Below, piece by piece: positions 12,001-15,000 of a DNA stretch of 64,000 bases. The DNA lies in assembly GCA_963514005.1 (NCBI GenBank), contig OY740807.1, forward strand, positions 30,380,001 through 30,444,000, written 5' to 3'. Positions within the stretch are counted from its first letter, which is position 1; each line of letters starts with the position of its first letter. The stretch comes from Raja brachyura (Eukaryota). The position numbers were made by a program.

Positions 12001-15000
12001 TGATAAATAACTCAGTTCAGTTCACCGAGGTACAGAGAAAAGCTTTTTGTCGCGTGCTAACCAGTCAGCAGAAAGACAATACGTGATTACAATCAAACTA
12101 ATCGCACTCCCAGTTTTGGGCAGCCATCCAGTCAAGTTGCAACATGTCGGCATAGGTTGGTGAATCAATACTCACTGCTTCTGTAACTGCATTATTGATG
12201 GAGGCTTGGCAATGATGTTCACTGCCGATACAACATGAAGCAACTCTGAACAAACAATTCGATGGAGTCTGCTCCGCATTATTCACTGAATCTACGACCT
12301 TTGGTGTTGATCGTTCTGCATAAAACAATTTGCTGCAGAAACCACGTTCAATTGAAAGCATCACATTGGTACTCGAGGAACACTGGTGAAATGCCCCCGT
12401 CAATAGATGCACATGTAGAGTTGAAATTGCGTAAAGGAGGGATTTATTGATAAACCAGTGGGTGGGTGGCAGCCGCAGGGAACAATCACCTGATTAGTAA
12501 ATAACTAATCATACATTTAAAAGTCATTTGGTCAAGTACATAGATAGAAAGGTTTAGAAGGATGGGCCAAACACGAGAAGTGGGACTTGTGTAGATAGAG
12601 CATCTTGGCCGGTATGGCAAGGTGGGCCGAAGGGCCTGTTTTCGTGCTCATAAGTTCATAAGTGATAGGAGCAGAAGTAGACCATTCGTCCCATCAAGTC
12701 TACTCCGCCATTCTATCATGGCTGATCTATCTTTCCCTCTCCTGCCTTCTCCCCATAGCCTCTGACACCCGCACCAATCAAGTATCTATCAATATCTGCC
12801 TTAAAAATATCCATTGACTTGGCCACCACAGCCACCTGTTGCAATGAATTCCTCAGATTCACCAGAAATCCCACCTCATCTCCTTCCGAAAGGTACACCC
12901 TTTTTCTTTGAGGCTATGGCCTCTCATCCTAGAGTCTCCCACTTGTGGAAGCATCCTCTCCACACCCACTCTGTCCAGGCCTTTCACTATTCAGAAAATT
13001 TCAATGAGGTCCACTCTGTAATAAACAGCAGAAATCTGTACCATTGTTGTATCTGACTGACCCCTCAAATGCCTGCTGTAACAGTATGCCAACAGTAAAT
13101 CCGATCTGAAGAAGGGTCTCGACCCGAAACGTCGCCTATCTCCTTCGCTCCTTAGATGCTGCTGCACCTGCTGAGTTTCTCCAGCCTTCTGTGTACTCAG
13201 TGAATCCGATACAGTTGTTTCAAGCAATGTTGAAAAGGACTGCTTCCTTCTGTAGGGTCTGCTTTTCTGTGCATAGTTCACAATACCCTCCCTTAGTGTA
13301 AACACAGCCTGCTTTAGCGTAGAGATTGTATTGAGGGTCTTGTGTTCAGACCCAAGATGTTACAGATCATGTCTCCAGAATACCAACGTGTATTTATTTA
13401 GTACCTCTAACCTACTAAATTGTCTTAAAGTTCCTCATCATAGAAATTGTCTCCAAGTCGCATAAGGTAATATTTTGATAGCTGATCAAGTACTTGGTTA
13501 GAAGTTTGGTTTTAGTTTAGTTTATTGTCACGTGTATCGAGGTACAGTGATAAGTTTCTGTTTTGAGCTAACTGGTCAGCAGAAAGACAATACATGATTA
13601 CAATCGAGCCATCCATAGTGTACAGATACATGATAAAGGGAATAACATGGATAACATTTAGTGCAAGATAAAGTCCAGTGAAGTCTGATCAAAGATAATC
13701 CCAGGGTCTCCAATGAGGTAGATAGTAGCTCAGGGCTGCTGGTGACTTGGAAGGATGGTTCAGTTAGAAGAGATAGATTTTAAAAGATCATATTAAATGA
13801 GGAAAAAGAGCTTTAGAAAGGTTGGAAAGAAACCTGATCAAGAGCTCTAGCATCTTACCAGCTATAGACCTCACAGATGTATATACATGAGAGGTATAGA
13901 TCGGGTAGACAATCTGAACCTTTTTCCCAGGGTGGAAACGTCAAAGACCGTAAGGCTGAGTATTAAGATGAGAAGGGCAAAATTAAAAGGAGATGTGTAG
14001 GGCAATCTGTTTTACATAGAAGGTGGTGGGATTCTGGGATGTGCTGCCAGGGGTGGCGGTGGAGGCAGATATGATAGTGGCGTTTAAGAGGCTTTTAGGT
14101 AGGCAAATGGACAGGGAATGGAGAGATATGGAGTCATGTGCAGGCCGATTAGATTATTTCATCTTGGCATCAAGTTGGCATTGATATAGTGGGCCGAAGG
14201 GCCTGCTCTTGCACAGTACTGTTCGGTGCTCTAAGTTGCCGATGATGGAGTGATTAAAATTGGAGATATACAAGAGGCCAGAACTGTGAGGAGCGGCGAT
14301 CTCAGGGAGCTGTGGGACTTGCAGAGTTCATTTGGGATAAAAATAAAATCTTATCATTTTAGATTGTATCCAATGACTATTAAAAATGACCCCAGGGATT
14401 TTTTTCAGATTCAATATAACACAACATGAGTTACACTGTACAGCTGTTACACAGAAGTCAGCCCAACTCAGCAGAGCTCCATTCTTTAGGAATAGCGCTT
14501 TTAAAATGTGGTTAAGATTTTATCAATAAAATATTACTTTTGCATTCAAATGTGTGAATGTAGTGATCTTGAGAGGACAGACATGCAGAGGGATAGTCAG
14601 AAAATCTATAGGAATTGTATCCTAGATGCATGATTAATAATGAACAGGGATTTAGATTTGGAAAATTGTTTAGTTAGTTAATCCGAAGAATAAATCCATC
14701 GTTCTCATTCTTGAACTTTTAACCACAGATTGGAATTAATTTTACTTGAGTTTTATGGGACAGCTGAATAACCTCATTATGTTGTTGGTAGTCTCCCAGC
14801 TAATTGGTATTAATTTAGTTTAGTTTAGAGTTACAGTGTGGGAAAAAAAGCTGTTCAGCCCACTGAGTCCTCACCGATCAGCGATCACCCGTGCACTAGT
14901 TCTATATCCTGCACACTAATGACAATTTACCAAAGCAAATGAACCTATAAACCTGTGCATCTTTGGAATGAGGAAGGAAACTGGATCACTCGGGAAAAAC

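What the first reader, a model, noticed from the sequence alone, without database searches (positions are those of the whole stretch)
13093..13210. Stand-alone 90-170 bp hammerhead modules with their own TSDs: possible non-autonomous retrozyme-like family
Seen: inserts made only of the hammerhead plus about 60-100 nt of tail are flanked by direct repeats at 3433-3574 (11 bp), 13106-13197 (13 bp, one mismatch), 33291-33411 (14 bp), 35863-36027 (12 bp) and 46438-46606 (13 bp). Several start within a few nt of the CTGA core. They keep sequence on both sides of the GUC site, so the copied template was uncleaved or religated there. Inference: either PLE reverse transcription preferentially stops at the 5' edge of the ribozyme fold, or a tiny hammerhead RNA is mobilised in trans by the PLE machinery.
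Basis: partly seen in the sequence, partly recalled or inferred. Interest (0 to 1): 0.65.

Follow-up and report, generated by a model that had tools for sequence, protein, structure and literature searches.

The report
Solo hammerhead ends of Penelope retrotransposons
These short hammerhead-bearing inserts are the cut-down tail ends of an ordinary Penelope-like retrotransposon of a cartilaginous fish, not a separate mobile family, though their starts cluster oddly tightly just before the ribozyme.

Summary
Direct repeats scoring >=10 occur in 8 of 25 events against 5 of 600 mismatched-flank controls.

The window holds about 31 arms from about 25 insertions of one unit: a minimal hammerhead core, about 62 nt, and an optional 40-nt tail. 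Longer copies continue upstream through an about 210-nt UTR into a GIY-YIG endonuclease reading frame. The units are therefore 3' termini of a Penelope-like element (PLE).

The two 3'-end classes, head-to-head inverted pairs and heavy 5' truncation match published PLE behaviour (PMC11167929, PMC8557442, PMC4209133).

A separate retrozyme-like family is not supported:
- Short and long copies interleave on a tree, and 13106+ pairs with the ORF-bearing copy.
- There are no tandem arrays.
- Both length classes use the same 3' ends.

The 5' ends are not smoothly distributed: 15 of 30 arms start at -6..+2 from CTGA. [quoted passage not shown] This is a known kind of element with one modestly interesting detail.

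The parts
13093..13105 (.). Left target-site duplication of the focal insert
   Evidence: 13 bp, with 1 mismatch to 13198-13210.
13106..13197 (+). Focal solo PLE 3'-terminal fragment, 92 bp. The minimal hammerhead core is 13106-13133, the predicted cleavage site lies after 13133, and the 3' end is of the short (no tail) class.
   Evidence: model -7..87; core intact. Nearest relative is the ORF-bearing copy 54258- (95/84).
13198..13210 (.). Right target-site duplication of the focal insert
3433..3574 (+). Solo copy with the 40-nt tail and an 11-bp exact TSD. It has 9 extra nt and then GGGT before CTGA.
2472..2571 (-). Solo copy of 100 bp with a 10-bp exact TSD. Starts GGGT and has the short 3' end.
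29016..29109 (-). Solo copy of 94 bp with an 11-bp TSD (1 mismatch)
33291..33409 (+). Solo copy with tail and an internal deletion after the core; 16-bp TSD (1 mismatch)
35863..36027 (.). Head-to-head pair inside one 12-bp TSD. The inverted arm (tail end to about position 60) is followed by 11 nt of filler and a direct arm that starts at about +2.
46438..46604 (.). Head-to-head pair inside a 15-bp TSD (1 mismatch). The inverted arm covers positions -3..49; the direct arm covers about 13..125.
56060..56272 (.). Head-to-head pair inside a 15-bp TSD (1 mismatch). One outer end carries the tail and the other does not.
16904..17143 (.). Head-to-head pair. Both arms start within 15 nt upstream of CTGA. 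No clear TSD.
10358..10476 (.). Head-to-head pair (short inverted tail piece plus a direct arm from -3) with a weak TSD (10 bp, 1 mismatch)
57768..58256 (.). Inverted short arm (57768-57890, minus strand) abutting a long direct arm (57891-58256, plus strand). The direct arm starts in the last codons of the ORF.
54167..55520 (-). Longest copy. In order: an RT-side coding piece 55176-55520, an unrelated stretch, the GIY-YIG piece 54459-54677, the stop codon, the 3'UTR, the hammerhead core 54231-54258 and a short 3' end.
   Evidence: PF01541 at 24.9 bits against a 22.6 cutoff; 70% identity to skate proteins.
44170..44601 (+). 429-bp 5'-truncated copy holding the last about 30 codons, the 3'UTR, the core at 44473-44500 and the tail. 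Candidate 12-bp TSD (1 mismatch).
42367..42787 (-). 5'-truncated copy with the ORF end, the 3'UTR and the core at 42439-42466
40504..41336 (-). 5'-truncated copy with the ORF end, interrupted by unrelated sequence between about 40830 and 41287. Core at 40572-40599.
23462..24062 (-). Copy reaching about -215 into the 3'UTR, split by an about 248-bp insertion at 23602-23849
28083..28217 (+). Solo copy with tail, least diverged of all; no clear TSD
   Evidence: (end branch 0.011).
25035..25175 (+). Solo copy with tail; starts GGT
46229..46360 (+). Solo copy with tail; starts GGT
20890..20989 (-). Solo copy starting at about -5, with an internal deletion
4788..4877 (-). Solo copy starting inside the core at about +4
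60672..60803 (-). Copy starting at about -28
24657..24827 (+). Diverged copy starting at about -46

Best explanation
The 90-170 bp modules are solitary 3'-terminal pieces of an endonuclease-bearing Penelope-like retrotransposon (PLE). The best protein matches come from skates, so the host is probably a cartilaginous fish.

The element ends with an about 210-nt 3'UTR, a minimal hammerhead core, about 62 nt, and an optional 40-nt tail.

Proposed steps:
- The PLE protein nicks the target, which produces the 10-16 bp duplications seen here.
- It starts reverse transcription inside the RNA at either of two sites about 35-40 nt apart. This gives the two 3'-end classes.
- It can prime on both DNA strands, which gives the head-to-head pairs.
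- It copies uncleaved RNA, so both sides of the GUC site are kept.

These steps are taken from work on the Anolis PLE. They are inferred here from the matching anatomy, not shown.

Why half of the copies begin 3-6 nt before CTGA is a separate sub-claim, which I put at about 0.4. I think the template RNA itself begins there, at an initiator-like TCAGTC. A start at the first RT-initiation site downstream would then run off the RNA's 5' end after about 95 or 135 nt.
For: The unit continues upstream into PLE coding sequence in the same orientation:
- The alignment of 7 long copies shows this, as do the translations.
- 54459-54677(-) matches the GIY-YIG domain PF01541 at 24.9 bits against a 22.6 cutoff.
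- The RT-side piece 55176-55520(-) is 70% identical to two skate RefSeq proteins.

The 3' ends are bimodal. By nhmmer, 17 arms end at positions 83-102, 15 at 119-128 and 1 at 49. Sequence beyond the tail is unique in every copy.

Six head-to-head pairs were found. In 5 of the 6, both outer ends lie in those two end classes. In 4 of the 6, the tail is present at one end only.

TSDs exceed chance: 8 of 25 against 5 of 600.

All of these features are described for PLEs:
- Internal initiation at two sites, the 30-40 bp tail, extension of both strands and use of uncleaved RNA: PMC11167929 (main text read).
- Heavy 5' truncation, an adjacent inverted truncated copy and a tail at one end: PMC8557442 (passages read).
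- Minimal hammerheads that occur mostly as single motifs and are attributed to truncated PLEs: PMC4209133 (parts 1-2 of the text read).

The tree interleaves short and long copies.

For the run-off sub-claim:
- 15 of 30 arms start at -6..+2, against 8 in the flanking 90 nt (p 6e-11).
- None of 11 single short copies shows PLE 3'UTR similarity upstream at E<0.1, while 12 of 36 long-long pairs do.
- TCAGT or CCAGT lies at that exact spot in 6 of 8 long copies.
- In the Anolis system, product length followed the template's 5' end from -126 through the hammerhead (PMC11167929).
- D. virilis Penelope has an internal TATA-less promoter with an initiator in the same region (PMC2377424, passages read).
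Against: - No full-length element or intact RT lies in the window. No ORF of >=75 aa hit RT or GIY-YIG in Pfam, so the element's true 5' end and its promoter are unseen.
- The initiator consensus is recalled, not tested. No transcript data are available.
- In D. virilis the start site lies 46 nt plus a 75-nt intron upstream of the hammerhead, not beside it (PMC2377424, PMC4209133).
- For copies without a TSD, the 5' positions were assigned by eye and are good to about +-3 nt.
- Four short copies read GGT or GGGT where the long copies read AGT. That could be cap-derived G, but it could equally be a mark of a separate lineage.
- The tree rests on 95 columns. Only 2 of its 25 inner branches are well supported, so it has little power to exclude a young short-copy lineage.
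- Only 64 kb of one genome was examined.
Confidence: 0.8

Rival explanations
1. One reading: a tiny autonomous-looking template, a 'mini-PLE' or retrozyme-like non-autonomous element of about 95-135 nt. It would be transcribed from its own copies and mobilised in trans by the PLE protein, evolving as its own lineage.
For: - The short copies have discrete, repeated 5' and 3' boundaries and their own TSDs.
- If the initiator-like motif works with downstream elements, each solo copy would carry both a start site and the RT-initiation region.
- Four short copies share GGT or GGGT at -4..-1, which is absent from the long copies. In 2 of them this gives a 4-bp helix I.
- Non-autonomous derivatives of PLE termini are reported in vertebrates, including one chondrichthyan (bioRxiv 10.64898/2026.07.22.740005, Results read).
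Against: - Short copies do not cluster. They need 12 label changes against a shuffled mean of 9.6, and 495 of 500 shuffles score as low.
- The focal copy is sister to an ORF-bearing copy at 95/84.
- The GGT/GGGT copies do not group together as a set.
- No tandem array of the unit appears in any of 29 TRF rows, and no head-to-tail junction is seen.
- The core is intact in only 6 of 22 arms.
Confidence: 0.12
2. One reading: the RNA extends further upstream, but reverse transcription tends to stop at the 5' edge of the ribozyme or protein-binding fold. This would be a telomerase-like template boundary. Longer copies would be read-through products.
For: - The same hot spot applies: 15 of 30 arms.
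- Both arms of the pair at 16904-17143 end within 15 nt of the same point.
- PLE RTs are the sister group of telomerase RTs (PMC8557442, abstract).
- In Anolis the protein-binding region lies just downstream of this point (PMC11167929).
Against: - In the Anolis in vitro system, insertion products shortened in step with the template's 5' end from -126 onward. The enzyme therefore read through the hammerhead without a dominant stop (PMC11167929, main text).
- A polymerase normally pauses before a structure, not after passing it (general knowledge).
- Unconstrained folding shows no stable structure ending at -4.
Confidence: 0.2
3. The repeat really belongs to the opposite strand. On this view it is the 3' tail of a LINE or SINE that ends ...CTTCTTCAG, and the hammerhead-like core is a coincidence.
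For: - Read on the opposite strand, one end (at CTGA) is fairly constant and the other varies, as for a 5'-truncated LINE tail.
- No Rfam hammerhead hit was found.
- A LINE-like ORF fragment lies nearby at 21690-22385.
Against: - The coding sequence that continues from the unit (GIY-YIG, stop codon, UTR) is on the hammerhead strand.
- The 'variable' end falls into just two classes 35-40 nt apart, which is the PLE tail signature.
- The core also shows features of PLE minimal hammerheads that were not part of the search pattern: an extra nucleotide after CUGANGA in 22 of 22 arms, a G-C pair opening helix II, and the ACGU palindrome. The criteria are from PMC4209133.
Confidence: 0.02

Closest known systems
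Poseidon-type PLE of Anolis carolinensis (PAc), studied in vitro (PMC11167929)
   Same: - A hammerhead lies close to the 3' terminus of inserted copies.
- There are two alternative 3' ends 30-40 nt apart (the 'tail').
- Both target strands are used, which gives inverted arms.
- Copies span the uncleaved GUC site.
- Very short 5'-truncated templates are competent.
   Different: - In PAc the ORF start codon sits inside the CUGAUGA box. Here the box reads CTGAAGA and has no ATG.
- A 43-codon open frame runs through the unit, but it found only two unnamed short proteins.
- A 5'-end hot spot just before the core is not reported in the parts of the paper I read.
Minimal hammerheads of metazoan PLEs (Cervera and de la Pena 2014, PMC4209133)
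   Same: - CUGANGA, then one extra nucleotide, then helix II opening with G-C, then GAAA.
- There is no helix III or loop 3, but a palindromic ACGU that would pair in a dimer.
- The motif occurs mostly as single copies and sometimes as nearby opposite-strand pairs.
- The authors attribute these to truncated PLEs.
   Different: - Helix I here is only 2 bp in 6 of 8 long copies, against the 4-5 bp described for Schistosoma. 2 bp is described for D. virilis.
- Cartilaginous fishes are not named in the text I read.
- Cleavage activity is untested here.
Animal non-LTR retrozymes (PMC7229834, abstract only; bioRxiv 10.64898/2026.07.22.740005, Results and Discussion passages)
   Same: - They are short, non-coding, hammerhead-bearing sequences related to PLE termini.
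- Monomers are dispersed through vertebrate genomes.
   Different: - Retrozymes are defined by tandem arrays and circular RNAs carrying canonical type I hammerheads. This window has no arrays.
- No Rfam type I match was found.
- The short copies do not form a lineage of their own.
Penelope of Drosophila virilis: internal promoter (PMC2377424)
   Same: A TATA-less internal promoter with an initiator lies inside the terminal repeat, upstream of the hammerhead.
   Different: The mapped start site lies 46 nt plus a 75-nt intron before the ribozyme. Here the putative start would lie 3-4 nt before it, and it has not been mapped.

Membership tests
Endonuclease-bearing Penelope-like element (3' terminus) | GIY-YIG endonuclease encoded C-terminally, on the same strand and upstream of the terminal repeat | tested here: met
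   PF01541 scores 24.9 bits against a 22.6 cutoff on 54459-54677(-). The ORF tail is shared by 4 long copies.
Endonuclease-bearing Penelope-like element (3' terminus) | Telomerase-like reverse transcriptase domain | tested here: inconclusive
   Only a post-RT piece remains, at 55176-55520(-). It is 70% identical to skate proteins. One of those proteins matches RVT_1 at 25.8 bits, below the 29.6 cutoff. No RT core was found in the window.
Endonuclease-bearing Penelope-like element (3' terminus) | Optional 30-40 bp tail, i.e. two alternative 3' ends | tested here: met
   17 arms end at positions 83-102, 15 at 119-128 and 1 at 49.
Endonuclease-bearing Penelope-like element (3' terminus) | Inverted 5'-truncated copy adjacent at the 5' side; heavy 5' truncation | tested here: met
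   6 head-to-head pairs. No arm reaches a full ORF.
Endonuclease-bearing Penelope-like element (3' terminus) | Partial tandem (pseudo-LTR) framing a full-length ORF | tested here: not met
   The window has no full-length copy and no head-to-tail junction. This is a limit of the 64-kb sample and is not evidence against the family.
Minimal PLE hammerhead (min-HHR) | Catalytic core CUGANGA ... GAAA ... UH | tested here: met
   The core is intact in 6 of 22 arms and decayed in the rest, often at CpG. The strict pattern is exact in 4 of 15 hits.
Minimal PLE hammerhead (min-HHR) | [quoted passage not shown] | tested here: met
   The extra nucleotide is present in 22 of 22 arms (A in 21). All 4 helix II pairs can form in 16 of 22 arms.
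Minimal PLE hammerhead (min-HHR) | No helix III, but a palindrome at 15.2-16.2 for dimer formation | tested here: met
   GAAACGTC, containing the ACGT palindrome, is exact in 6 of 22 arms and is the majority state.
Minimal PLE hammerhead (min-HHR) | Helix I of about 4-5 bp | tested here: inconclusive
   Helix I is 2 bp in 6 of 8 long copies, 4 bp in 2 short copies and 0-3 bp elsewhere. A 2-bp helix I is reported for D. virilis (PMC4209133).
Minimal PLE hammerhead (min-HHR) | Self-cleavage | not testable with these tools
   MFE and cofold runs did not return the hammerhead fold. Published min-HHRs cleave poorly even as dimers (PMC4209133).
Rfam hammerhead families (type I, II, III, HH9, HH10) | Match to a covariance model | tested here: not met
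   0 hammerhead hits at the gathering score, at E<=10 on the whole window, and at E<=10 on 3400-3600.
Animal non-LTR retrozyme | Head-to-tail tandem repeats of the unit | tested here: not met
   None of 29 TRF rows involves the unit. No same-strand abutting arms were found.
Animal non-LTR retrozyme | A lineage of its own, distinct from autonomous PLE termini | tested here: not met
   Short and long copies interleave. 13106+ groups with 54258- at 95/84. The test has low power: 95 columns and 28 arms.
Animal non-LTR retrozyme | Unit-length circular RNA | not testable with these tools
   No transcript data are available.

The most novel reading that the evidence does not exclude
The stretch from -4 to the first or second RT-initiation site is a self-sufficient mini-template. 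It would carry an initiator-driven start site, the hammerhead and the RT recognition and initiation region within about 95-135 nt. Any solo copy could then be transcribed and re-inserted by the PLE protein. That would make it the smallest known Pol II-type non-autonomous retrotransposon, with the GGGT variant (4-bp helix I) marking its active form.
Probability: 0.12. Interest if true: 0.6.

Novelty: new member of a known kind. Interest (0 to 1): 0.25.

Why it matters
The finding mainly shows that the published PLE insertion model also accounts for the repeat landscape of a cartilaginous fish. That model comprises internal initiation at two sites, use of both strands and uncleaved RNA. It was worked out in a lizard element and in invertebrates.

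About 25 insertions in 64 kb show how much of such a genome these ribozyme-bearing stubs make up. They can be mistaken for SINEs or retrozymes.

The one point beyond the literature I read is the sharp 5' boundary 3-6 nt before the ribozyme core. If it marks the transcript's start, it locates the PLE promoter. It would also explain why solo hammerhead stubs so greatly outnumber longer copies.

Tried and rejected
- **Rfam**, run at the gathering score, at E<=10 on the whole window and at E<=10 on a 201-nt slice, gave no hammerhead hit. This is uninformative for minimal hammerheads.
- **Fuzzy regex search** for the core found only 7 copies. I replaced it with blastn and nhmmer.
- **Pfam on 144 stop-to-stop ORFs of >=75 aa** found no RT or GIY-YIG hit, because the PLE frames are broken into shorter pieces. 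The GIY-YIG hit came only from a piece chosen from the alignment.
- **MFE folding and dimer cofolding** of five copies did not reproduce a hammerhead fold. Only helix II appeared, and only in some copies. I take this as no evidence either way.
- **Protein search with the 43-codon open frame through the unit** returned two unnamed short proteins from read and sample collections. I did not fetch or use them. The search therefore gave no evidence that the ORF begins in the unit, as it does in Anolis.
- **Opposite-strand LINE/SINE-tail reading**: rejected on ORF orientation.
- **Intron-acceptor reading of the CAG before the core**: considered because of the D. virilis precedent. Rejected because TSDs abut the short copies directly, with no shared upstream exon.
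- **Terminal branch lengths of short and long copies** do not differ significantly (median 0.14 against 0.068, Mann-Whitney p 0.14).

Not done:
- Structure prediction and complex prediction were not relevant.
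Full report
**1. What is at the coordinates**

13093-13210 is a 92-bp insert (13106-13197) between two 13-bp direct repeats that differ at one base. The insert opens with CTGAAGA. It continues with one extra A, a GC-rich hairpin and GAAACGTC, followed by about 64 nt more.

The motif CTGANGA-N13-GAAACGTC with up to 2 mismatches occurs 15 times in the window, against 0.29 expected from shuffles. blastn with the focal 118 nt finds about 25 related places. nhmmer with a long copy as query lists 38 hits, which I resolve into about 31 arms from about 25 insertion events.

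The window contains three N runs, which I left alone. It does not look human: the best protein matches are RefSeq proteins of two skates.

**2. Target-site duplications**

For each event I took the best direct repeat between its two flanks. I compared these with all mismatched pairings of left and right flanks.

- A score of 10 or more occurs in 8 of 25 events and in 5 of 600 controls.
- A score of 12 or more occurs in 4 of 25 events and in 0 of 600 controls (a narrower search window gave 6 of 26 against 3 of 650).

The one at 35851-35862 / 36028-36039 was first seen by eye. Seventeen events have no convincing duplication. These copies are old, roughly 15-25% diverged from each other.

**3. 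Anatomy of the unit**

I number from the C of CTGA as position 1.

- The core occupies positions 1-28.
- A conserved stretch runs to about position 90.
- An optional further 40 nt runs to about position 130.
- Sequence beyond position 130 is different in every copy, so that is a true terminus.

By nhmmer, 17 arms end at 83-102, 15 at 119-128 and one at 49.

Seven to nine copies extend upstream of CTGA. Aligned, they share an about 210-nt non-coding stretch. Before that they share the end of a reading frame, which translates into a recognisable endonuclease tail. The piece 54459-54677 on the minus strand passes the Pfam GIY-YIG gathering score (24.9 against 22.6 bits). Further upstream in the same copy, 55176-55520 is 70% identical over 74 residues to a skate protein. 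A second skate hit carries a sub-threshold RVT_1 match.

So the unit is the 3' terminus of an endonuclease-bearing Penelope-like element, read on the hammerhead strand. No full-length copy or RT core lies in the window.

**4. Inverted pairs**

Six events are two arms lying head to head:

- 10358-10476
- 16904-17143
- 35863-36027
- 46438-46604
- 56060-56272
- 57768-58256

In 5 of the 6, both outer ends fall in the two 3'-end classes. In 4 of the 6, one outer end has the tail and the other does not.

**5. Match to published PLE behaviour**

Frangieh et al. 2024 (PMC11167929, main text read) studied an Anolis PLE and showed that:

- the hammerhead sits at the repeat-ORF junction;
- reverse transcription starts internally at two adjacent sites about 85-92 nt past the cleavage site;
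- the stretch between those sites is the optional 30-40 bp 'tail' of genomic copies;
- the protein cleaves and extends both target strands;
- ribozyme mutants insert normally, so unprocessed RNA is the main substrate;
- products shorten in step with 5' truncation of the template.

Craig et al. 2021 (PMC8557442, passages read) describe heavy 5' truncation, an adjacent inverted truncated copy, and a tail often present at only one end.

Cervera and de la Pena 2014 (PMC4209133, first two of four parts read) define the minimal PLE hammerhead. It has no helix III, a palindromic 15.2-16.2, an extra nucleotide after position 9 and a G10.1-C11.1 pair. They report that most such motifs occur singly and are 'probably related to truncated PLEs', with some nearby pairs on opposite strands.

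Every one of these features is seen here. This also explains why Rfam's hammerhead models find nothing.

**6. State of the ribozyme**

- The catalytic core is intact in 6 of 22 arms.
- All four helix II pairs can form in 16 of 22 arms.
- Helix I is 2 bp (CAGT against ACCC) in 6 of 8 long copies. It is 4 bp in two short copies that read GGGT.
- The focal copy has an intact core, but only a single G-U pair is available for helix I.
- Unconstrained folding and dimer cofolding do not return the hammerhead fold.

Activity cannot be judged here. Published minimal hammerheads cleave weakly even as dimers, and the Anolis one needs the protein.

**7. Is there a separate short family?**

I built an ML tree of 28 arms over positions 1-95 (95 columns; 3 weak or very short arms were left out). 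On it, the short copies that start at the hot spot interleave with the long copies.

- The label needs 12 changes against a shuffled mean of 9.6, and 495 of 500 shuffles score as low. That means no clustering at all.
- The focal copy is sister to the ORF-bearing copy 54258- (95/84, one of only two well-supported branches).
- 3446+ pairs with the long copy 44473+ (90/87).
- 25041+ and 46232+ sit with the long copy 40599- (91/71).

Short and long copies use the two 3' ends in similar proportions: 8, 6 and 1 other among short, against 5 and 4 among long (my tally). Tandem Repeats Finder reports no array of the unit (0 of 29 rows).

The tree is short and weak, so a young short-copy lineage cannot be excluded.

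**8. The 5' hot spot**

Of the 30 arms whose 5' end lies between -303 and +97, 15 begin at -6..+2. The binomial p is 2e-17 against a uniform spread. Against the flanking 90 nt it is 15 versus 8 arms, p 6e-11.

All 5 single copies whose ends are fixed by a duplication have templated sequence starting at -6..+1; one of them has 9 extra nt in front. The hot spot is not an alignment artefact:

- None of 11 single short copies shows similarity at E<0.1 between its upstream 120 nt and the upstream 300 nt of any of 9 long copies.
- By comparison, 12 of 36 long-long pairs do match.
- The only strong hits came from inverted arms.

So truncation is not smooth.

**9. Why there?**

The published in vitro result argues against a dominant stop at the ribozyme's edge, because product length tracked the template's 5' end through the hammerhead. 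It favours an RNA that begins there.

The sequence at -5..+1 is TCAGTC or CCAGTC in most long copies. That fits the initiator consensus as I recall it; the consensus is recalled, not tested. D. virilis Penelope has an internal TATA-less promoter with an initiator in its terminal repeat (PMC2377424, passages read), although its start site lies further from the ribozyme.

On this reading, any PLE transcript carries an RT-initiation site 90-130 nt from its 5' end. Initiation at that site runs off to give exactly the observed stubs. The extra G in four copies (GGT, GGGT) could be cap-derived, but 4 of 15 against 0 of 9 is not significant. I put this sub-claim at about 0.4, a template-boundary stop at about 0.2 and a self-propagating mini-element at about 0.12.

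**10. Verdict**

The PLE link and the 5' pile-up are right. The 'non-autonomous retrozyme-like family' is not supported.

The kind of object is already described in the literature. My searches found no paper on this family in skates or on a 5' boundary beside the core. I could not see Repbase, Dfam or any supplementary table. The one chondrichthyan species in the 2026 preprint (10.64898/2026.07.22.740005) is not named in the text I read.

Noticed in passing
e.g. 41590-41904 (+); 39 nhmmer hits across the window: A second, even more abundant repeat of about 300 bp, with a GC-rich head and a (TAAAC)-like tail. It is probably a SINE. It is unrelated to the hammerhead unit, but copies often lie next to it, e.g. 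3135-3420 just before the 3433-3574 insert.
   Followed up: partly
21690-22385 (+): A 232-codon open frame with a Pfam ALKBH8_N match (49.3 bits). This domain is commonly carried at the C-terminal end of fish LINE reverse transcriptases (recalled). It is likely a LINE fragment and is not part of the PLE.
   Followed up: no
2567-2571, 3442-3445, 25038-25040, 46229-46231: Four short copies read GGGT or GGT immediately before CTGA, where the long copies read CAGT. In two of them this makes a 4-bp helix I with the ACCC or GCCC that follows the cleavage site. This could be cap-derived G, a lineage marker or chance.
   Followed up: partly
46229-46971: Four arms from three separate insertions lie within about 750 bp, and long copies cluster at 40504-44601. 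PLE copies seem to land near one another, as the Anolis work suggests for insertion into the element's own repeats.
   Followed up: no
23602-23849 and about 40830-41287: Two long PLE copies are split by later insertions of unrelated sequence.
   Followed up: no
28089-28217 (+) and other tail-bearing copies: One frame is open through all 43 codons of the unit. A protein search found only two unnamed short proteins (E 5e-6 and 1.6e-5), which I did not fetch. Whether the PLE ORF begins in or near the hammerhead, as in Anolis, stays open.
   Followed up: partly
52471-53108; 61715-61881; 62065-62184: A C-rich low-complexity block of about 640 bp that is open in all six frames. (CT)n and (TG)n tracts border the masked N runs.
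   Followed up: no
3428-3445: The 9 extra nucleotides at the 5' junction of the 3433-3574 insert, together with their neighbours, form a small perfect hairpin (4-bp stem). They also match the reverse complement of the short-class 3' end. This may be a very short second arm from priming on the other strand.
   Followed up: no
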